In this document: in pieces, positions 57-32,282 of the stretch
How the letters are laid out: each line of letters starts with the position of its first letter
Numbering within the stretch: position 1 is the stretch's first letter
The notes under the pieces: model-generated
The model's input: only the letters and a program-made list of their open reading frames with translations
Told to the model about the DNA's origin: nothing
Database searches by the model: none
Source: Dehalococcoidia bacterium
Lineage (GTDB): Bacteria; Chloroflexota; Dehalococcoidia; Lucifugimonadales; CAZENU01
NCBI GenBank assembly: GCA_965117035.1
Contig: OZ220748.1
Span: 2,351,992 to 2,415,991, forward strand
Length of the DNA: 64,000 nucleotides
Direction: 5' to 3'
Position numbers and translations under genes: made by a program

Positions 57-302
57 CTAGCCTGTTGCCGCGGCCTCCAGGGCTGCGTCGAGCTTCGCCG
101 GGCTGTAGCCCACGACCTTCTCGTCGCCGATCACGGTCACCGGCGTAGTCCGGTAGCCCATGCCGACGAGGCTCTTCAGCGAGTCGACGCTCTGCGATAT
201 GTTGTGCTCGGTGAAGGGCACGCCCTTTCGTGAAAGATACACTTTCACCATATGGCACGGCCCTCAGCCGTTCGACGTGTATACCAGTATTTCGCTGCTC
301 AC
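57..302 (-). CDS. glutaredoxin/NrdH-like thioredoxin-fold protein, candidate selenoprotein (active site U-G-P-C; in-frame TGA at 266..264)
   Basis: Reading the - strand through the TGA at 266..264 gives VSSEILVYTSNG[TGA]GPCHMVKVYLSRKGVPFTEHNI...TTPVTVIGDEKVVGYSPAKL. This is a glutaredoxin/NrdH layout with the TGA at the first Cys of the CxxC. The GTG start at 302..300 overlaps the upstream stop (GTGA), with GAGGA 9 nt upstream. The ORF track shows only the 64 aa after the TGA. Confidence 0.6.
230..248 (-). promoter_or_regulatory. candidate SECIS-like hairpin downstream of TGA 266..264
   Basis: The mRNA reads GUGAAAG-UGUAU-CUUUCAC: a perfect 7-bp stem and a 5-nt loop with G at loop position 2. 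The loop begins 22 nt after the UGA, inside the spacing range described for bacterial SECIS elements. Confidence 0.4.
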
Positions 303-766
303 TCCGACTCGTCCTCCGGCGTCTTCTTCGACTTCGGCCGCTTCGTCGACGCCTTCCTTCTCTCTCTATTGTACTCCCGTTTGCCGCCGGTGTTGTCGAA
401 CAGCTCCTCGCCGACCTGCACCGCCTCGCCTATCGTCTGCTCGACCGCTCCCTCTTCCTCTTCGTACTTGCGAAGAAACTCTTCGCTCACGAAGAACAGT
501 CATATGCAGAACCCGTCCCTCTGGATGTCCTCGTGATGCCGTTCGCACGGGCATATTTTCTTGCGGTCCTCCACGGGATCGCCGCTGAGAGGCATTCAGG
601 GGCAGTACCGGTACCCGTGGACGCGCTCGTTTTCTCCCAGGCCTTCCTGGACGATTCGGACGACCTCGGCGTCCGGGAAGAACTCGTACGGCCCACGGTC
701 GACGTAGCGCTCCGAGAACGCCTTCGCCCTGTCGAACGCCTCCGACTCGCTCAGCTCTCTCGGCAT
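299..766 (-). CDS. ferredoxin:thioredoxin reductase catalytic-subunit-like Fe-S protein, candidate selenoprotein (in-frame TGA at 598..596 and 502..500)
   Basis: One frame is interrupted only by two TGAs: MPRELSESEAFDRAKAFSERYVDRGPYEFFPDAEVVRIVQEGLGENERVHGYRYCP[TGA]MPLSGDPVEDRKKICPCERHHEDIQRDGFCI[TGA]LFFVSEEFLRKYEEEEG...ESE. The layout CP[U]-X14-CPC-X12-CI[U]-LF parallels the FTR catalytic chain CPC-X16-CPC-X8-CHC-LF. ATG at 766 follows a GAGGAA motif. The ORF track reports only the last 63 aa. Confidence 0.65.
471..496 (-). promoter_or_regulatory. candidate SECIS-like hairpin(s) downstream of TGA 502..500
   Basis: There are two mutually exclusive hairpins: UUCUUCG-UGAG-CGAAGAG (496..479) and CGAAGA-GUU-UCUUCG (485..471). 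The second places a G-first apical loop 20 nt after the UGA. Confidence 0.35.
568..592 (-). promoter_or_regulatory. weak candidate SECIS-like structure downstream of TGA 598..596
   Basis: The lower stem CCUCU (592..588) pairs with GGAGG (572..568, one G.U). The upper stem CGG/CCG carries the loop CGAUC (581..577). It is short and interrupted, so support is low. Confidence 0.2.
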
Positions 767-1126
767 CTATTCCTCTTCACTCTTCCCAGCCGGCGCCGCC
801 GGCCCCATTCGCATCCTCGCGTGCATCTCGCACGGCATCCGGTGGAACGACTTCGCCTGCAGCATCAGCCGCCGCGCCAGCTCCGGCGCGGCCTTCCTCA
901 GATCGTCCATGCCCTTGTCCGGCGCCACCTCGACGCTCAGCAGGCCCGCCGTGCCGCAGTCGCACCGGACCGCGAAGAAGACCTTTTCGAAGCCCGGGTT
1001 CGCCGTCAGGTCCAGCTTGAACCCCGCCAGCGGTCTCAGGCCCGAGTCCTCGGGAAGAGCGTCGGAAATGACCGCGCGGATCTCGCTGACCGAGGGCCGC
1101 CGCCCGACGTCCGCTACGCTATCGAT
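767..1126 (-). CDS. hypothetical Cys-containing protein, open frame without a canonical start codon
   Basis: The coding-looking frame reads ...HIDSVADVGRRPSVSEIRAVISDALPEDSGLRPLAGFKLDLTANPGFEKVFFAVRCDCGTAGLLSVEVAPDKGMDDLRKAAPELARRLMLQAKSFHRMPCEMHARMRMG... It ends at TAG 769..767, directly abutting the ATG at 766. No ATG/GTG/TTG occurs before the internal GTG/ATG near 925-910. A GAGGTG motif lies 4 nt upstream of an in-frame ATC at 1126..1124. The 5' limit is uncertain. Confidence 0.35.
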   Translation of the reverse strand: MDSVADVGRRPSVSEIRAVISDALPEDSGLRPLAGFKLDLTANPGFEKVFFAVRCDCGTAGLLSVEVAPDKGMDDLRKAAPELARRLMLQAKSFHRMPCEMHARMRMGPAAPAGKSEEE

Positions 1127-1151: not shown

Positions 1152-1228
1152 TGGTGGGCGGTAAAGGATTTGAACCTATGACCTCTGCGATGTCAACGCA
1201 GCGCTCTAAACCACTGAGCTAACCGCCC
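1152..1228 (-). tRNA. tRNA-Val (anticodon GAC), CCA encoded
   Basis: Cloverleaf read by hand. Acceptor GGGCGGT/ACCGCCC, D stem GCUC/GAGC, anticodon stem CUGCG/CGCAG with loop UUGACAU, T loop UUCAAAU (one U.U in the T stem), discriminator A plus CCA. Confidence 0.9.
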
Positions 1229-1372: not shown

Positions 1373-2482
1373 TCATGGCAGATTCGCGTCAACCCAGTAT
1401 TCCATGTCGTCAAGGAACGAGGGATCGTACGCTTCGTCGACATGGTTATTGTTCCAGAGGCCGGACAGGCGAACCCGCTCCCGGTCGCTGAATCGGCCAA
1501 GCCATTCTCCGGACGGCCCGTCTATTGCGGGGCGGCCATAGCCACTCAGGATTGCTATAGCATTGCGCTCGATGAATCCGCGGCTGGAGTTGGGGCCGGG
1601 CTCATCGTCCACGCTCATCCACACAAAGGGCATCTGTCCGATATACTCGCTGACCGAGGCTTCGATGTCCGCTTCCGCACTACTGTCGGCAGTTCCGGCA
1701 ACGCCCCACGACTCTGGTAGCAGTACATCCCCCCGGCTGGCCAACGCAACACCTACGAGCAACCGAAAAACCGACCCTCGGTGGTTACCCAGGCCAGACC
1801 GGGACGTGCCGCGATGCTGAGAGAGCCGGCCCCACAGGGTACTTCGAGAGCCATGTCTCAGCGCATGAGCGCCGACGCGAACGACTCTGGGCCCGCCCCC
1901 CGAGCCTGATCTGGACTCACCATTCTCGTAGAAGAAATACACCCCGCGCCGCGGCCAGCTCATGCCGGCGCTGCAGCTTCGCAAGAATCTGGGGCCACCG
2001 ACCCGATCCGCAAGGTGATCGAGAAGCTCATAGAAGCGTACGGTGTCGCCCAACCGATCAGCCGCGCACATCCCAGTCAACCATCTCAATTGCTCCCCGA
2101 TCCTCATACCTTCCATCGGGACGCAGACGGCCAGACCACGACCTCGCAAAGATGGCTCCAAGAACTCTCGGTAGCGTCGACCAGCCAAAATCACTACCGA
2201 ATCGACACCATCCAAATGCGGCCCCAATTGTGCAAGCACTCTGCTGGCCCATTCACATCGGCCCGGCTTTGGAATGGCGTTCAGGGTGAGATCGTAAGGC
2301 GCGACTACTTGATCTGGATGTACAAGGCCGTGTTTGGCAGACAGTACGAACCAAGGCTGCCCGGTGCTATCTGCATAGTTGCGGGCCTTGCGGAACCAGG
2401 AAGACGTGTAAAGGTCTCTGGCAGGTGCTGGAACCGACCGCTTCCGCCCTACGCAAGACAGCAACTGGACTTGACGGAACAC
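1373..2482 (-). CDS. two-domain protein: N-terminal DUF6884-like domain fused to a GIY-YIG-type nuclease domain
   Basis: The N-terminus LLSCVGRKR...PARDLYTSSWF...WFVLSAKHGLVHPDQVVAPYDLTL resembles the DUF6884-type SCSxxK...ILSAKyGL...PYD pattern. The C-terminal half has GVYFFYENGE...RVVRVGAHAL...GNHRGSVFR...IERNAIAIL, which is GIY-YIG-like. GTG start with GGGGAG 5 nt upstream. Domain names are from memory and were not searched. Confidence 0.6.
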   Translation of the reverse strand: MFRQVQLLSCVGRKRSVPAPARDLYTSSWFRKARNYADSTGQPWFVLSAKHGLVHPDQVVAPYDLTLNAIPKPGRCEWASRVLAQLGPHLDGVDSVVILAGRRYREFLEPSLRGRGLAVCVPMEGMRIGEQLRWLTGMCAADRLGDTVRFYELLDHLADRVGGPRFLRSCSAGMSWPRRGVYFFYENGESRSGSGGGPRVVRVGAHALRHGSRSTLWGRLSQHRGTSRSGLGNHRGSVFRLLVGVALASRGDVLLPESWGVAGTADSSAEADIEASVSEYIGQMPFVWMSVDDEPGPNSSRGFIERNAIAILSGYGRPAIDGPSGEWLGRFSDRERVRLSGLWNNNHVDEAYDPSFLDDMEYWVDANLP

Positions 2483-17645: not shown

Positions 17646-20600
17646 ATGCCGGGCCACCTGTTCGCCAGCTACTTCCTGACCGACGGCATCCGGGACACAC
17701 CGGAGTGGAAGGCCTCGCTCGCCGACCCGGAGCGGTTCGCCGCCTTCGAGGAGGACATCCGCCGGCGCTACGAGGTCCTCGACGCCGCCGCCGACCCCAA
17801 CGAGGCGGTCACCGAGCAGGAGCTGGTCCGCCCCGTGCTCGAGCTGCTGGGATGGGAACACTACCTGCCGCAGCAGGGCGCCGCCCGCAATGAGGACATC
17901 CCCGACCACCTGCTCTTCCCCGACGCCGAAGCCAAGGCCCGCGCCGCCGCGAAACCCAACCCCGAGGCGAGATATCCGGACGCCATCGTCGTCGAAGAGA
18001 GCAAGCGGTTCGACCTGAACCTCGACGCCCGCGACCCCGACGCCCGCCAGCGCTCACGGACGCCGCACGGGCAGATACTCCGCTACCTGTCGACCGCCGA
18101 CGTCGAGTCGGAGAGCCGCATCCGCTGGGGCATCCTGACCAACGGCCGCGTGTGGCGCCTCTACGACTACCGCGCCCGCCCTCGCGCTTCCGGCTACTTC
18201 GAGACCGACCTGGGCGAGGCGCTGCAACCGGACAACGAGGACGACCTGCGCCTCTTCTGGCTGCTGCTGCGCCGGAGCTCCTTCACGCCGCAGGACGGCG
18301 CGACCTTCAGCTTCCTGGAGGCGGCGCTGGCGGAGGGCCGCCGACACGAACAGCAGGTAGCCCAGGACATCTCCGCCGTGGTGTTCGAGCGTGTCTTCCC
18401 GACCCTCGTCCGGGCCCTGGCAGCAGCCACGGACGAGGATCTCCCGGCCGTCCGCGAGGCCGCTCTCATCTTCCTGTACCGGCTGCTCTTCGTGCTCTAC
18501 GCCGAGGACCGGGGCCTGCTCCCCGTCAACGACTCGCGGTACGAGGACTACGGTCTGCGCAAGCCGGTGCGAGAGGACGTCGCGCGCCGGATGGACGCCG
18601 GCGCCACCTTCTCCTACACCGCCTCGAAATACTACGGCCACTTGGAGACGCTCTTCGGATTGATCGACCAGGGCGACCCGTCCATCGGCCTCCCGCCCTA
18701 CAACGGCGGCCTCTTCTCCCGGGACGCCGCGCCGCTGCTGGAACGTCCGCCTCTCGGACGCGGCCGTCGCCTTCATGGTCTACGACCTCAGCCACGCCGA
18801 GACCGCCGGCGGCAGGCGCTTCATCAACTACCGCGACATGTCCGTGCAGCAGCTCGGCTCGATCTACGAGCGCCTGCTGGAGCGGGAGCCCGTCAGGGAC
18901 GAGCTGGGCATGATCGTCGTGCGTCCCAACAGCTACGCCCGCAAGGACAGCGGCAGCTTCTACACGCCCCAGGAGCTCGTCGACCTGATCGTCGACCGCA
19001 CCCTGAAGCCACTTGCCGATGAGCGTCTGGCCGCCTTCGAGAAGAAGTCCAAGGAGCTGAAGCGCGACCATAGGCCGAAGGACGTGCGGGAGGCCGAGCT
19101 GCGCGATCTGGACCCGGCTGAGGCCGTGCTCGACCTGAAGGTGCTCGACCCGGCGATGGGCAGTGGCCACTTCCTCGTCACCGCCGTCGACTTCCTGTCC
19201 GACTATGTCGCCGAGCTGGTCGAGTACGTGCCCGCGGTGCCCGAATGGCTCGCCGGCGAGTACGCGTCGCCGCTCGTGGAGCGCATCGCCGCAATCAGGC
19301 GCGACATCCTCGAACGGGCGCGGCAGGCCGACTGGGTGATCGACGAGGCGCAGCTCACCGACGAGGCCATCGTCCGTCGGATGGTGCTGAAGCGCTGCAT
19401 CTACGGCGTCGACAAGAACCCGCTCACCGTCGAGCTCGCCAAGGTCTCGCTGTGGCTGCACAGCTTCACCGTCGGCGCGCCGCTGTCGTTCCTCGACCAC
19501 CACCTGCGCACAGGCGACTCGCTCGTCGGTATGCGCGTGCTGGAGGCGACACAAGAGCTGAACCGCCTTGGCGGACTGTTTGCGAGCTCGGCCATTTCCG
19601 GCGCCGAGAAGGCAACATGCGGCATGCAGCGCATCGAGGAGATGTCGGACGCCGACGTGTCCGAGGTCCGAGAGTCCGCCTCGCTGTTCCAGAACGTCGA
19701 GGAGACGACCGCCGATCTGCGCGGTCTGCTCGACTTCATGTGCGGCCTCCGCTGGCTGACCGCAGGAATGGGGAAGAATGAGCGGGAGTCCTTCGAGTCG
19801 CCGATTATGGACGCGTTGGGCTGGGAACTGGACGACGCGTTCAACCTGTTGGCCAATGGTCCGGAGGTCTTCATATACGAAGATTCACTTGAAGCGACCT
19901 TCGAGTCGCTGTGGCTCGAGGTCAAGTCGGTCGCCAAGCGCGAGAGCTTCCTGCACTGGGAGGTCGCATTCCCCGGCGTCTGGCACGGATGGCAGGACGC
20001 GCACCCGGCTGGGGGCTTCGACGCCGTGATCGGCAACCCGCCCTGGGACCGTATCGAACAACAGGAAGTGGAGTGGTTCGCCATGCGCGACGAAGAGATC
20101 GCGCTGGCAAGCACTGGAGCCGCGCGCAAGGCGATGATCCAAAGGCGCCTGCGCCAAGGCGATAGACTCGCTCTTGAGTACGAGCAGGTGCGGGCAAGAG
20201 CGGCGACGTTGCGCGCACTGGTTCGAGACTCGGACGAGTATCCGCTCCTGAGCGGGGGGCGCATCAACCTCTACTCGCTCTTCGTCGAGCGCGCGATGGG
20301 CCTCGTCAAGCCCGACGGCTTCGTCGGCCTGCTCACGCCGTCCGGCATATACGCCGACAAGACGGCGGCGAAGTTCTTTCGGTCGATCTCGACCGGCGGG
20401 CGCGTGTCAGGCCTGTTCGACTTCGAGAACCGGCGGCTCGGAACTGGGCTGCCGCCGTTCTTCCCAGACGTCGACTCGCGCTTCAAGTTCTGCGCGTTCG
20501 TCCTCGGCGGCGATGAGCGGCGCTTCAACGAGACGGCTTGCGCCTTCTTCCTCCCCGATACCGAGACCATCGACGACCCGGACCGCTGCTTCCCGCTGAC

Positions 20601-21682
20601 GCCCGACGACTTCGCCCGCGTCAACCCGAACACCGGCACTGCGCCCGTCTTCCGCACGCGACGCAGAGATCACCCGCCGCATCTACGAGCGGCATCCCGT
20701 CCTGGTCAACCGCTCAGGCAGCAAGATACGCCGCGCATGGCCGGTGAGGTTCATGCAGGGGCTGTTCAACATGACGTCCGACTCCAATCTGTTCAGGACG
20801 TCGGAGCAACTCGACTCCATGGGCTTCTACCCCGTCCAGGGCAACCGATGGAAGAGAGGAGGGAAACTGTATCTGCCGTTGTACGAAGGAAAAATGGTGC
20901 AACTGTATGATCACCGCGCCGCAGGCGTATTGGCAAATCCTGAGAACCTAAACCGTCCGAATCAGCCTCTCGAGGCCCGAACTGATGAACACGCTGATCC
21001 CAACTGGTTGCCGACACCCCTGTATTGGGTCGACGAGGGATCGTTCGACTGGCCAAATCACCTAGGCTGGACAATAGCGTTCAAGGATGCAACCGCCCCT
21101 ACGAATGCACGAACCATGATCGCCGCACTAGTATCGGCTCAAAGCTTCGGCAACACTCTCCCCATCCTGATGCCCAATTCATCTGAACTAGACACCTACA
21201 AGAAACGGGCATGGCTACTGGTTGGCTGCCTCAATTCAATGGCGTACGACTTCGTGGCCCGACAGAAGGTTCAAGGCCAACATCTCAACTGGTTCATCGT
21301 GGAGCAGCTTCCCGTCGTCGCGGCCGACGACTACGGCCGGCGGTTCGGCGACACGACCGCCCGCGAGCTCGTCCGCGACCATGTGCTGCGGCTCACCTAC
21401 ACGGCGCACGACATGGCGCCGTTCGCGCGCGACCTCGGGTACGACGGCCCGCCGTTCACCTGGGACGAGGAGGAGCGCCGGCACCTGAGAGCGCGGCTCG
21501 ACGCGCTCTACTTCCACCTCTACGGCCTCTCGCGCGACGACGCCGACTACGTCCTGGGCACCTTCCCCATCGTCCGCCGCGAGGACGAGAAGGAGTTCGG
21601 CAGCTACCGCACCCGCGACCTCATCCTCGCCTACATGAACGCCCTCGCCGCCGGCGACACCGAAACGGTCGTCTCGGCCTAG
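17646..21682 (+). pseudogene. type IIG restriction-modification enzyme (PD-(D/E)xK nuclease + N6-adenine methyltransferase + specificity region) disrupted by two frameshifts
   Basis: Three consecutive ORFs (17646.., 18775.., 20744..) read as one protein. The N-terminus has PDHLLF...VVEESKR. The methylase motifs are VLDPAMGSGHFLV and VIGNPPWDRI. The C-terminal part has LYEGKMVQLYDHRAA... The frame changes by +1 near 18745 (LLER|RLSDAAVAF) and near 20660 (VFRTR|AEITRRIYE). Confidence 0.75.
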
Positions 21683-31083: not shown

Positions 31084-32112
31084 TCAGCGTGACCGGAAGT
31101 GGTCCCAGCCGCCGGTGTCGACGACCAACGGCTGGCCGCGCTCGTCGATGACGGTGACGCCGGCGTCTTTGTGCACTATCTCCCCGATGACGGACAGCGG
31201 CGCGCCACCCTCTCGGGCGACCTTCTCCAGCGTGTCCACGGTCGCCGCCGCCAGGAGCTCGTAGTCCTCGCCGCCGGCGAGTACCAGCGACAGCCAGTCG
31301 TCCGGGTAGGCGGAGCGCAGGAAGGCGTCCGCGGGCAGTTGGTCCGCCAGGACGACGGCGCCGACGCCGCTGGCGCCGCACAGCTTCCCGAGGTCGTCCA
31401 GCAGCCCGTCGCTGACGTCGATTGCGGCGTGGGCGCCGTAACGGGCGAGCGCCTGGCCCTCGGACAGCCGCGGCTCCGGACGGACGTGCGCGGCACGGAG
31501 ATGGGCGGCGGTCTCGCCGTCGAGCCTGTGCCGCTCAGCCATCATCTTCAGTCCGCCGGCCGAGCGGCCGAGGTATCCGGTGACCACGACGAGGTCGCCG
31601 AGGCGCGCGCCGTGCCGGGAGAGCAGGGGCTGGCCGGCTGTGCCGTCGCCGTCGGCCTGCGCCACGCCGGTGAGGGCCACGGAGACGAAGAAGGTCGGGC
31701 TGCGGACGATGTCGCCGCCGACGAGCGCGCATCCGTACCGTTCGCACGCGTCGAGCATGCCCTCGTACATCTCTACGAGATCGTCCTCCCTCAGGCCGTA
31801 GGGCAGGCCGAGGCCGACCACGGCGGAGACGGGCAGGCAGCCCATCGCCGCCACGTCGCTCAGGTTGACGGCGATGGACTTCCAGCCCAGGTCGCGCCAG
31901 CCCGTCGAGGCGAGATCGAAGTGGATGCCCTCGACCAGCACGTCGTTGGTGATCACGTCTACGCCGGCCGGTCTCTCCCAAGCCGCGGCGTCGTCGCCCA
32001 GGCCGATCTTGAGGCGATGCCCGTCGGCGGCCGGCCGGTCGAGCCCGCGCCGCTCGATCAGCCCGGTCAGCACGCGAATAAGGTCGAACTCCCCGATGTC
32101 CTCTACGCGCAT
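31084..32112 (-). CDS. thiL: thiamine-monophosphate kinase
   Basis: MRVEDIGEFDLI...GDDAA...DVLVEGIHF...GGDI AIR-synthase-like pattern. An internal ATG at 32112 was chosen. Confidence 0.85.
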   Translation of the reverse strand: MRVEDIGEFDLIRVLTGLIERRGLDRPAADGHRLKIGLGDDAAAWERPAGVDVITNDVLVEGIHFDLASTGWRDLGWKSIAVNLSDVAAMGCLPVSAVVGLGLPYGLREDDLVEMYEGMLDACERYGCALVGGDIVRSPTFFVSVALTGVAQADGDGTAGQPLLSRHGARLGDLVVVTGYLGRSAGGLKMMAERHRLDGETAAHLRAAHVRPEPRLSEGQALARYGAHAAIDVSDGLLDDLGKLCGASGVGAVVLADQLPADAFLRSAYPDDWLSLVLAGGEDYELLAAATVDTLEKVAREGGAPLSVIGEIVHKDAGVTVIDERGQPLVVDTGGWDHFRSR

Positions 32113-32282
32113 GCCGCAGATTATACCCGCGCGGACGCCACTCCGGCGCCGCCCCATGACGACGGGAACCCGCCGGCGCCGCGATTGCATCAAATCGTAT
32201 AGGATGGACTGGACGGCCGGTGTCCCCGCCGCTTCAGCAGTCCACGATGGGTCCGCCGTACGCAATCGAAACGGGAGCGAAA

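What the first reader, a model, noticed from the sequence alone, without database searches (positions are those of the whole stretch)
57..302. Adjacent glutaredoxin/NrdH-like gene with TGA at the first position of its CxxC motif (U-G-P-C)
Seen: the 64-aa track ORF lacks the N-terminal strand and the first active-site Cys of a glutaredoxin fold. Reading upstream in the same frame through TGA 266..264 restores them: VSSEILVYTSNG[TGA]GPCHMVKVYL... A GTG start at 302..300 overlaps the FTR-like stop (GTGA). A perfect 7-bp hairpin with a UGUAU loop (230-248) starts its loop 22 nt after the UGA.

Established: Sec-for-Cys substitution at the N-terminal (nucleophilic) position of CxxC redox motifs is the classic pattern in bacterial thioredoxin-fold selenoproteins. 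Bacterial SECIS hairpins lie just downstream of the UGA with a G-containing apical loop.

Inference: this is the Sec-containing disulfide (selenosulfide) acceptor of the upstream FTR-like reductase.
Basis: partly seen in the sequence, partly recalled or inferred. Interest (0 to 1): 0.75.

Follow-up and report, generated by a model that had tools for sequence, protein, structure and literature searches.

The report
Selenocysteine glutaredoxin paired with seleno-FTR
The short "glutaredoxin" gene is really an 81-residue selenoprotein whose in-frame TGA encodes selenocysteine at the active site. It sits in a conserved operon with a double-selenocysteine ferredoxin-thioredoxin-reductase-like enzyme in marine SAR202 bacteria, so it is a new, widely mis-annotated member of a known selenoprotein class.

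Summary
On the minus strand, 302..57 reads VSSEILVYTSNG-[TGA 266..264]-GPCHMVKVYL...ATG*. The GTG start overlaps the upstream stop as GTGA. A 7-bp hairpin with a UGUAU loop lies at 248..230, and its loop starts 22 nt after the UGA.

- **Conservation:** the TGA is present in all 80 species-level relatives found, all Dehalococcoidia/SAR202 genomes. None has TGC or TGT. The in-frame peptide before the TGA is under protein-level selection.
- **Hairpin:** it stays base-paired in 560 of 560 cells. It shows one compensatory GC-to-UA change and frozen synonymous sites, and it meets all four criteria of the bacterial SECIS model.
- **Position:** the TGA column is the first Cys of the CxxC motif. It is also residue 13 of Clostridium oremlandii Grx1 (PDB 7C10), which is natively selenocysteine.
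- **Partner:** the upstream gene is the known FtrB double-selenoprotein (NF041072). It lies next to the glutaredoxin gene in 80 of 80 species, together with a conserved uncharacterised Cys3-His protein.

This is a new, generally mis-annotated member of the known Sec-glutaredoxin kind. That the FTR-like enzyme reduces it is inferred from synteny, not shown. No selenocysteine machinery was found in the window, and the rest of the genome could not be checked.

The parts
57..302 (-). Full-length Sec-glutaredoxin-like gene. It encodes 81 residues including Sec13, from GTG start 302..300 to TAG stop 59..57.
   Evidence: Translation. Pfam PF00462 scores 47.6 bits with U read as C. It aligns over residues 1-74 with PDB 7C10. 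The frame is conserved in 87 distinct relatives.
264..266 (-). In-frame TGA, read as selenocysteine 13. This is the first, nucleophilic position of the U-G-P-C motif.
   Evidence: TGA in 95 of 95 loci and 80 of 80 species representatives, with no TGC or TGT. It aligns with the first Cys of CxxC and with the native Sec13 of cGrx1.
255..257 (-). TGC codon for Cys16, the resolving position of U-G-P-C.
   Evidence: Cys in 87 of 87 sequences: TGC 79, TGT 8.
230..248 (-). Apical hairpin of the SECIS element: GUGAAAG-UGUAU-CUUUCAC. Its loop starts 22 nt after the UGA.
   Evidence: z = -4.2 for the 35-nt core. 560 of 560 cells pair, with 9 wobble changes and 2 sequences carrying a compensatory GC-to-UA change. 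Synonymous sites are frozen. It meets the bacterial SECIS criteria.
57..251 (-). The 64-aa ORF starting at ATG 251..249. Gene callers and public databases annotate this piece. It lacks strand beta-1 and the active-site nucleophile.
   Evidence: 118 of the best 120 database relatives are 63-71 aa fragments. Pfam scores only 24.8 bits.
312..317 (-). GGAGGA Shine-Dalgarno-like sequence, 9 nt upstream of the GTG start and inside the 3' end of the FtrB gene.
   Evidence: Read directly from the sequence.
299..766 (-). FtrB-family double-selenoprotein gene (FTR catalytic-subunit-like). It has in-frame TGAs at 598..596 (C-P-U) and 502..500 (C-I-U). Its stop TGA 301..299 overlaps the glutaredoxin start.
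   Evidence: NCBIfam NF041072 scores 217 bits against a cutoff of 160. Pfam PF02943. Both TGAs are conserved in relatives.
470..486 (-). Candidate SECIS hairpin for the second FtrB UGA: GCGAAG-AGUUU-CUUCGC.
   Evidence: Alifold consensus and frozen codons: Leu CTT 74/74, GAG 74/74, TTT 71/74. Window fold z = -2.4.
563..582 (-). Candidate SECIS hairpin for the first FtrB UGA: GCG.UCC...GGA.CGC.
   Evidence: Alifold consensus with constrained codons: GAT 77/79, GAG 79/79, CGC 71/79. It is weak in the window's single-sequence fold.
767..1120 (-). Third cassette gene, here called X. It encodes a conserved protein of about 100-135 aa with invariant C-x-C...C-x-x-H and unknown function. The start codon in this window is unclear, so the 5' end is approximate.
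   Evidence: Conserved upstream of FtrB in the relatives. 31 homologues, none named. No Pfam family. Confident AlphaFold2 model with no PDB match. No ATG, GTG or TTG start in the window copy.
1152..1228 (-). tRNA-Val(GAC), immediately upstream of the cassette. It is the only tRNA in the window and is not tRNA-Sec.
   Evidence: ARAGORN and Rfam.

Best explanation
The gene at 302..57 (minus strand) encodes an 81-residue NrdH/YruB-like glutaredoxin-fold redoxin. UGA 266..264 is decoded as selenocysteine, giving a U-G-P-C active site with Sec as the attacking nucleophile and Cys16 as the resolving residue.

Decoding is directed by a bacterial SECIS hairpin embedded in the coding sequence (GUGAAAG-UGUAU-CUUUCAC, 248..230). 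Presumably a SelB-type elongation factor binds it through the loop G-U. This dual use explains why the peptide MVKVYLSR and its codons are nearly invariant.

The gene is translationally coupled (GTGA overlap) to the upstream FtrB double-selenoprotein, an FTR-catalytic-subunit-like iron-sulfur enzyme in which both redox-active cysteines are Sec.

Inferred, not shown: FtrB, reduced by a ferredoxin-type donor, reduces the oxidised selenenylsulfide of this redoxin, probably through an intermolecular Se-Se intermediate. The redoxin then reduces so far unknown client proteins. The conserved Cys3-His protein X is a third component of unknown role.

Shown here: the reading frame, the fixed TGA, selection on the hairpin, homology to a verified Sec-glutaredoxin, and the synteny. 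Inferred: actual Sec insertion, SelB binding, and the direction and partners of electron flow.
For: 1. **Frame across the TGA.** Codons -8 to -1 are conserved as I-x-V-[YF]-[TS]-S-x-G while their third positions vary freely. Val-6 is GTA 31, GTC 31, GTT 22, GTG 3, and Ser-3 uses all four TCN codons.
2. **Fixed TGA.** It is present in 95 of 95 loci and 80 of 80 species representatives, all Dehalococcoidia/SAR202/Chloroflexota. The four other assemblies found to carry the identical 64-aa ORF, one of them from TARA, also have TGA.
3. **Active-site column.** The TGA aligns with the first Cys of CxxC in 7C10, 1H75 and 4HS1. 7C10 is C. oremlandii Grx1, natively U-P-H-C. The Grx UxxC class is listed as a verified selenoprotein family.
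4. **SECIS.** The stem pairs in 560 of 560 cells. Eight sequences change AU to GU, one changes UA to UG, and two carry a compensatory GC-to-UA change (GTG to TTG together with CTT to ATT). Stem codons are frozen: Val+6 GTG 87/87, Val+8 GTG 85/85 (the loop G is its third base), Leu+10 CTT 85/85, Ser+11 TCA 86/87. Other sites in the same gene vary: Leu+32 is CTT in 11 of 83, Ser-3 is TCA in 7 of 87. The loop codon Tyr is free, TAT 53 and TAC 34. All four published criteria are met: a 5-nt loop on a 7-bp stem, G at loop position 2 followed by U, 22-nt spacing, and a fold energy of -12.7 kcal/mol.
5. **Rare codons.** Five A/T-ending codons across the hairpin and its 3' flank (two in the arms, one in the loop, two spanning an arm's edge) are each rare in this GC3 0.95 genome, joint p = 5.6e-8.
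6. **TGA is otherwise a stop here.** It ends 12 of 35 confident genes, and rpoB and rpoC are intact under table 11.
7. **Partner.** FtrB scores 217 bits on NF041072. FtrB with both TGAs is adjacent in 80 of 80 species, co-directional in 77 and divergent in 3, in at least four different flanking contexts. Both FtrB UGAs are followed by constrained hairpins, and the second has an N-G-U loop like the glutaredoxin one.
8. **Precedent.** FTR-like ferredoxin:disulfide reductases reduce Trx-like and NrdH-like redoxins in Methanosarcina.
Against: - No tRNA-Sec, selA, selB or selD was found in the 64-kb window. The only tRNA is tRNA-Val. The one AIRS-family ORF is ThiL, not SelD. The rest of the genome could not be examined.
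- No Cys-containing orthologue of this subfamily was recovered, so the Sec/Cys pairing rests on more distant homologues. One of the two search patterns (MVKVYLSRK) coincides with the SECIS-encoded peptide, which biases against finding Cys forms.
- Rfam reports no SECIS family here.
- There is no protein-level evidence for Sec insertion.
- The reductase-substrate relationship is based on synteny only. A divergent FtrB lineage lacks an adjacent glutaredoxin, so FtrB does not strictly need this partner to be encoded next to it.
Confidence: 0.85

Rival explanations
1. The TGA is a genuine stop. The real product is the 64-aa protein starting at ATG 251..249, as annotated in public databases, and the upstream in-frame stretch is non-coding.
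For: 118 of the best 120 database relatives are called as 63-71 aa proteins starting at MVKVYLSRKG. TGA followed by GGN always creates a GAGG Shine-Dalgarno-like sequence about 10 nt before that ATG, which explains why gene callers pick it.
Against: - The 12 codons before the TGA are conserved at the amino-acid level while synonymous positions vary. This is not expected for a spacer.
- They supply strand beta-1 and the nucleophile of the fold. The Pfam score doubles when they are included.
- They align residue for residue with 7C10 from position 1.
- A 64-aa fragment lacks the catalytic residue.
Confidence: 0.03
2. The TGA is an assembly or sequencing error, or a pseudogene lesion, of an ordinary TGC (Cys) glutaredoxin gene.
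For: It differs from TGC by a single base. The window is a metagenome-type assembly.
Against: The same TGA is found in 95 of 95 loci from many independent assemblies and in 80 species-level genomes, with none carrying TGC or TGT. The rest of the gene is under purifying selection.
Confidence: 0.01
3. The UGA is read through, but not as selenocysteine. Possibilities are Trp or Cys from near-cognate tRNAs, Cys delivered by a SelB/tRNA-Sec-like system, or an alternative genetic code.
For: No Sec machinery was identified in the window. Some public gene calls already translate these TGAs as W. Natural recoding of Sec sites to Cys through Sec-like tRNAs has been reported; this is from my own knowledge and was not checked here.
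Against: - TGA terminates 12 of 35 confident genes in the window, and the long housekeeping genes contain no in-frame TGA. A genome-wide reassignment is therefore excluded.
- All three recoded UGAs in the cassette sit exactly at redox-active Cys positions, and each has a constrained hairpin at SECIS spacing.
- The closest solved homologue is a proven Sec protein at the same residue.
Confidence: 0.07
4. The conserved hairpin is not a SECIS. It is a regulatory RNA structure, for example one that occludes or exposes the internal ATG, or a pause site, and the UGA is bypassed by another route.
For: The hairpin begins 1 nt after the internal ATG 251..249. Rfam has no matching family.
Against: Its loop size, stem length, G-U loop motif and 22-nt spacing all fit the bacterial SECIS model. 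Analogous constrained hairpins follow both FtrB UGAs, where no internal start exists.
Confidence: 0.04

Closest known systems
Clostridium (Alkaliphilus) oremlandii glutaredoxin 1 (cGrx1; PDB 7C10/7C12), an experimentally studied selenoprotein glutaredoxin
   Same: It is the best solved-structure match, E = 1.9e-12 over residues 1-74, with no gaps. It has the same length class and the same position of the recoded residue, Sec13 in a U-x-x-C motif. The Grx UxxC class is listed as verified.
   Different: The motif is U-G-P-C (thioredoxin-like) rather than U-P-H-C. The phylum is different (Chloroflexota rather than Firmicutes). cGrx1 is proposed to be the reductant of the selenoprotein MsrA, whereas this gene is coupled to an FTR-like enzyme. 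The SECIS sequence is unrelated.
NrdH-redoxin and YruB-family glutaredoxin-like proteins (TIGR02194, TIGR02196; for example E. coli NrdH, PDB 1H75)
   Same: These are the best NCBIfam matches, at 64.7 and 56.8 bits. They share the small glutaredoxin fold. By inference, they are reduced by a protein reductase rather than by glutathione.
   Different: Both scores fall below the curated cutoffs of 88.55 and 85.75. The motif is U-G-P-C, not C-V-Q-C. Sec replaces Cys. No ribonucleotide reductase genes lie nearby.
FtrB family double-selenoprotein (NCBIfam NF041072), the FTR selenoprotein first predicted from Global Ocean Sampling data (Zhang and Gladyshev 2008, PMC2398784)
   Same: The adjacent gene is a member, scoring 217 bits against a cutoff of 160. 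Sec occupies both redox-active Cys positions, as described in 2008.
   Different: This is the neighbour, not the finding itself. The papers I could read do not mention an obligatory Sec-glutaredoxin partner or the X gene.
Ferredoxin:disulfide reductase (FDR) with Trx-like or NrdH-like redoxins in Methanosarcina, and the plant and cyanobacterial ferredoxin/FTR/thioredoxin system
   Same: An FTR-catalytic-subunit-like [4Fe-4S] enzyme passes electrons from ferredoxin to a small thioredoxin-fold redoxin encoded nearby. Details of the M. barkeri operon are from my own knowledge of Wei et al. 2015, which is not in the held library.
   Different: Those systems use only cysteine. Here all three exchanging residues that face each other are Sec. 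There is no rubredoxin domain or FTR variable subunit, and an unrelated protein X is present instead.
UXX-star glutaredoxin-like selenoprotein families (NF041114, NF041211, NF041212)
   Same: They share a distant glutaredoxin-like fold and are selenoproteins. The NCBIfam hits are weak, at 17-40 bits.
   Different: In those families Sec lies three residues from the C-terminus. Scores are far below the cutoffs of 66-100 bits. This gene is not a member.

Membership tests
Glutaredoxin fold (Pfam PF00462) | Whole-protein score at or above the gathering threshold of 22.9 bits. | tested here: met
   47.6 bits for the 81-aa read-through with U read as C. The 64-aa fragment scores 24.8 bits.
Bacterial selenoprotein glutaredoxin (UxxC class) | In-frame TGA aligned with the first Cys of the CxxC motif of Cys-containing homologues. 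| tested here: met
   Aligns with the first Cys in 7C10, 1H75 and 4HS1, and with the native Sec13 of cGrx1.
Bacterial selenoprotein glutaredoxin (UxxC class) | TGA-containing orthologues in other organisms, with coding conservation on both sides of the TGA. | tested here: met
   80 of 80 species representatives. Codons -8 to -1 and +1 to +65 are conserved at the amino-acid level.
Bacterial selenoprotein glutaredoxin (UxxC class) | A bacterial SECIS element downstream of the UGA: 3-9 nt loop, 4-16 bp stem, G in the first two loop positions, 16-37 nt spacing, and fold energy of -7.5 kcal/mol or lower. | tested here: met
   5-nt loop UGUAU, 7-bp stem, G at loop position 2 followed by U, 22-nt spacing, -12.7 kcal/mol. 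The stem is maintained by selection.
Bacterial selenoprotein glutaredoxin (UxxC class) | Sec-decoding machinery (tRNA-Sec, SelA, SelB, SelD) in the same genome. | not tested
   Absent from the 64-kb window.
Bacterial selenoprotein glutaredoxin (UxxC class) | Selenium actually incorporated at the UGA position. | not testable with these tools
   Requires 75Se labelling or mass spectrometry.
NrdH-redoxin (TIGR02194) | Score at or above the curated cutoff of 85.75 bits, and a C-V-Q-C active site. | tested here: not met
   56.8 bits. The motif is U-G-P-C.
YruB-family glutaredoxin-like protein (TIGR02196) | Score at or above the curated cutoff of 88.55 bits. | tested here: not met
   64.7 bits. It is the best NCBIfam hit but is below the cutoff.
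UXX-star selenoprotein families (NF041114, NF041211, NF041212) | Score at or above the cutoff, and Sec three residues from the C-terminus. | tested here: not met
   17-40 bits against cutoffs of 66-100. Sec is at residue 13 of 81.
FtrB double-selenoprotein (NF041072), for the neighbouring gene | Score at or above 160 bits, with two in-frame TGAs at the redox-active Cys positions (C-P-U and C-x-U). | tested here: met
   217 bits. CP* and CI* in the window and in the relatives.
Ferredoxin-dependent FTR/redoxin couple (functional system) | The reductase reduces the redoxin using ferredoxin electrons. | not testable with these tools
   Only synteny (80 of 80 species), the 4-nt gene overlap and literature precedent.

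The most novel reading that the evidence does not exclude
The cassette X-FtrB(U,U)-Grx(U) is a self-contained, ferredoxin-driven redox relay that runs on selenium throughout. FtrB's active-site diselenide is reduced through its [4Fe-4S] cluster. It then attacks the redoxin's selenenylsulfide to form an intermolecular Se-Se intermediate, something not described for any FTR/Trx-type system. The fold-orphan Cys3-His protein X would be a new obligatory subunit, electron donor or client. Because the cassette is fixed across SAR202, selenium would be a required micronutrient for thiol redox control in one of the most abundant bacterial groups of the deep ocean.
Probability: 0.3. Interest if true: 0.6.

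Novelty: new member of a known kind. Interest (0 to 1): 0.4.

Why it matters
Selenoprotein glutaredoxins and the double-Sec FTR family are both already known, so the chemistry is not new. Three things are useful here.

1. A very widespread SAR202/Dehalococcoidia gene is systematically mis-annotated. Public protein sets carry it either as a 64-65 aa "glutaredoxin family protein" or with Trp at the Sec position, and no NCBIfam model captures it. Fixing this would correct hundreds of database entries.
2. The strict pairing with FtrB(U,U) in 80 of 80 species gives that orphan predicted selenoprotein a concrete candidate substrate. It also defines a three-selenocysteine operon that can be tested biochemically.
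3. It adds a compact SECIS with good comparative support (7-bp stem, N-G-U-N-U loop) for Chloroflexota. This can be used to find further selenoproteins in these uncultured marine bacteria and to judge their dependence on selenium.

Tried and rejected
- **Rfam** scan of the whole window found only tRNA-Val and no SECIS family. This is uninformative, because no Rfam family matched this hairpin.
- **The long lower stem** in the window's own fold was tested on 80 sequences and is not conserved (68% of cells pair). I dropped it from the model.
I therefore ran no exhaustive search for Cys-form orthologues.
- **A scan of the window for other in-frame TGA candidates** gave 164 hits, dominated by spurious ORFs typical of high-GC sequence. 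I abandoned it.
- **Search for Sec machinery in the window.** Pfam and NCBIfam on 31 ORFs chosen by GC3 found none. An ORF from the AIR-synthase-related (AIRS) family, to which SelD also belongs, at 31084..32265 looked like a possible SelD but is ThiL: TIGR01379 scores 279.7 bits, against 60 bits for selD, which is below its cutoff.
- **Divergent FtrB lineage** (P0129, P0130; L096, L097). I checked it for a Cys-type FtrB-glutaredoxin operon. There is no glutaredoxin or X next to it. It does give a Cys/Sec pair at FtrB site 1.
- **Protein X.** It has no Pfam family and no PDB fold match despite a confident model, so I could assign no function.
- **Papers not in the held library:** Kim 2011, Haft 2023, Haft and Tolstoy 2025, Wei 2015 and Prakash 2018. 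I therefore cannot exclude that Haft and Tolstoy 2025 already describes this neighbourhood. The 2026 review that cites it does not list it.
Full report
**1. What is in the sequence**

- On the minus strand, GTG 302..300 opens a frame reading VSSEILVYTSNG-*-GPCHMVKVYLSRKGVPFTEHNISQSVDSLKSLVGMGYRTTPVTVIGDEKVVGYSPAKLDAALEAAATG-*. The internal stop is TGA 266..264 and the terminal TAG is at 59..57.
- The mechanical ORF list contains only the 64-aa piece starting at ATG 251..249.
- The upstream gene (766..299) ends with TGA 301..299, so its stop and the GTG overlap as GTGA. GGAGGA lies 9 nt before the GTG.
- The 35-nt core folds at -12.7 kcal/mol, z = -4.2, and 0 of 200 shuffles fold as well.

**2. 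The N-terminal extension belongs to the protein**

- With U read as C, the 81-residue product scores 47.6 bits on Pfam Glutaredoxin. The 64-aa fragment scores 24.8.
- The best NCBIfam matches are the YruB family (64.7 bits) and NrdH (56.8 bits). Both are below their curated cutoffs.
- Against solved structures, the best hit is 7C10 (E = 1.9e-12), aligned without gaps from residue 1 to 74. E. coli NrdH (1H75) and other NrdH structures follow. In all of them the TGA column is the first Cys of CxxC.
- 7C10 is Clostridium oremlandii glutaredoxin-1, a native selenoprotein whose catalytic Sec (U-P-H-C) was replaced by Cys for crystallography (PMC7642778). The recoded residue is therefore at the same position, residue 13, as in an experimentally studied Sec-glutaredoxin.
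- A 2026 review lists Grx (PF00462, UxxC) among verified prokaryotic selenoproteins.

**3. Comparative evidence for read-through**

- A protein search returned 229 relatives. Of the best 120, 118 are 63-71 aa fragments beginning MVKVYLSRKG. The two "full-length" entries carry W at the TGA column, meaning they were called with a table in which TGA encodes Trp.
- A scan of one genome per species returned 80 loci, all from Dehalococcoidia, SAR202 or Chloroflexota genomes.
- In all 80, and in 15 further metagenomic loci, the column is TGA. None has TGC or TGT (L040 has the variant G-*-GPCR).
- The four other assemblies found to carry the identical 64-aa ORF, including a TARA scaffold, also have TGA. 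This rules out a sequencing error.
- The codons before the TGA are conserved as amino acids (I/V-8, V-6, Y/F-5, T/S-4, S-3, G-1) while their third positions vary freely. Val-6 is GTA 31, GTC 31, GTT 22, GTG 3, and Ser-3 uses all four TCN codons. This is the signature of a translated region.
- TGA is otherwise a normal stop in this genome. It ends 12 of 35 confident genes, and rpoB and rpoC are intact.

**4. The hairpin is under RNA-level selection**

- In 80 distinct sequences the 7-bp stem pairs in 560 of 560 cells. Eight sequences change A-U to G-U, one changes U-A to U-G, and two carry a compensatory G-C to U-A change (GTG to TTG together with CTT to ATT, changing V to L and L to I).
- Synonymous sites inside the stem are frozen: Val+6 GTG 87/87, Leu+10 CTT 85/85, Ser+11 TCA 86/87. 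The loop G is the third base of Val+8, which is GTG in 85 of 85.
- The same amino acids elsewhere in the gene use all their codons. Leu+32 is CTT in 11 of 83 and Ser-3 is TCA in 7 of 87. The loop codon Tyr+9 varies freely, TAT 53 and TAC 34.
- In the window itself, real genes have GC3 of about 0.95. The codons AAA, TAT, CTT, TCA and CGA have usage of 2-5.5% each, so the joint probability of this run is 5.6e-8.
- The element meets all four constraints of the published bacterial SECIS model: a 3-9 nt loop with a 4-16 bp stem, G in the first two loop positions followed by G or U, 16-37 nt spacing, and fold energy of -7.5 kcal/mol or lower.
- The longer lower stem in the window's own fold is lineage-specific and not part of the conserved element.

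**5. Context: a three-gene cassette**

- The upstream gene is a member of NCBIfam NF041072, the FtrB family double-selenoprotein (217 bits against a cutoff of 160). It reads C-P-U ... C-P-C ... C-I-U.
- This family was predicted from Global Ocean Sampling data in 2008, with the two Sec at the two redox-active Cys positions of FTR.
- FtrB with both TGAs lies next to the glutaredoxin gene in 80 of 80 species. By regular-expression search, 76 have it 0.3-0.7 kb upstream and co-directional. One more is visible through N-masking, and three are divergently oriented.
- The flanking genes differ between lineages, so the pairing itself is what is conserved.
- Both FtrB UGAs are followed by hairpins with the same kind of synonymous-site freezing. 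At site 2 the hairpin is GCGAAG-AGUUU-CUUCGC, with Leu CTT in 74 of 74. Site 2 shares the N-G-U loop start with the glutaredoxin hairpin, as expected if one SelB reads both.
- A third gene, X, precedes FtrB in the relatives. It encodes about 100-135 aa with invariant C-x-C...C-x-x-H. It has no Pfam family. A confident AlphaFold2 model (pLDDT 86) has no significant PDB match.
- A more divergent FtrB lineage has Cys at site 1 and TGA at site 2, with neither a glutaredoxin nor X beside it.

**6. Mechanism**

Shown here:
- the reading frame across the TGA;
- the fixed TGA at the nucleophilic position;
- a selected hairpin of SECIS type;
- homology to a verified Sec-glutaredoxin;
- obligatory synteny and start/stop overlap with FtrB(U,U).

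Inferred:
- SelB-dependent insertion of Sec;
- FtrB, reduced by a ferredoxin-type donor through its [4Fe-4S] cluster, reduces the redoxin's Sec13-Cys16 selenenylsulfide;
- in FTR the exposed redox-active residue attacks the N-terminal residue of the thioredoxin motif (established FTR mechanism, from my own knowledge), so the intermediate here would be an intermolecular Se-Se bond.

The U-G-P-C motif and the NrdH/YruB-like sequence fit reduction by a protein reductase rather than by glutathione. I did not compare glutathione-binding motifs. FTR-like ferredoxin:disulfide reductases that reduce Trx-like and NrdH-like redoxins are known in Methanosarcina. The clients of the redoxin and the role of X are unknown.

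**7. Weak points**

- No tRNA-Sec, selA, selB or selD lies in the window. The only tRNA is tRNA-Val, and the single AIR-synthase-related (AIRS-family) ORF is ThiL. I could not scan the whole genomes.
- No Cys-form orthologue of this subfamily was recovered. One of the two search patterns coincides with the SECIS-encoded peptide, which biases against finding such forms.
- There are no protein-level data.
- Several key papers were not available. I cannot exclude that the neighbourhood has already been described, although the 2026 review does not list it.

**8. Verdict**

It is a new, widely mis-annotated member of the known Sec-glutaredoxin class. It forms a conserved three-selenocysteine operon with the known FtrB double-selenoprotein in marine SAR202 bacteria. 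Interest is moderate: the chemistry and both families are known, but the strict pairing, the third orphan gene and the SECIS with comparative support are useful and testable.

Noticed in passing
window 767..~1120 (-): Cassette gene X is a conserved protein of about 100-135 aa with invariant C-x-C...C-x-x-H. It always lies upstream of FtrB. It has no Pfam family, and its confident AlphaFold2 model (pLDDT 86) has no significant PDB fold match. In this window the ORF has no ATG, GTG or TTG start between the tRNA-Val gene and codon 928, so its initiation codon is unclear.
   Followed up: partly
window 299..766 (-), TGAs at 598..596 and 502..500: In the FtrB double-selenoprotein gene, each UGA is followed by a conserved hairpin with frozen synonymous sites. 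The site 2 hairpin is GCGAAG-AGUUU-CUUCGC at 486..470. Its loop starts N-G-U, like the glutaredoxin hairpin, which suggests a lineage-specific SECIS consensus.
   Followed up: partly
window 1373..2482 (-): A 369-aa ORF with an N-terminal DUF6884 domain lies between rpoC and tRNA-Val. Its GC3 is 0.65, against about 0.95 for its neighbours. A closely related contig (L012) has a much shorter rpoC-to-FtrB gap (about 0.7 kb against about 1.9 kb). It looks like a strain-variable, foreign insertion next to the tRNA gene.
   Followed up: partly
L096 397..840 and L097 52..480: A divergent FtrB lineage (about 62% identical) has Cys at the first redox site and TGA at the second in L096, and TGA at both in L097. 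This gives a Cys/Sec pair within the FtrB family. Its neighbour is a 47-aa desulforedoxin-like gene, and there is no glutaredoxin or X gene.
   Followed up: partly
public protein sets (P0003, P0004, P0121-P0129): Some database entries for the glutaredoxin and for FtrB are full-length but carry Trp at every Sec column. They were evidently called with a genetic code in which TGA encodes Trp. Most other entries are truncated fragments. Both kinds are annotation artefacts.
   Followed up: yes
window 18775..20910 (+): An Eco57I-like restriction-modification methylase gene (PF07669 and PF02384), with somewhat lower GC3 (0.83) than the surrounding genes.
   Followed up: no
window 31084..32265 (-): This AIR-synthase-family ORF could be mistaken for SelD. 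It is thiamine-phosphate kinase ThiL: TIGR01379 scores 279.7 bits, against 60 bits for selD, which is below its cutoff.
   Followed up: yes
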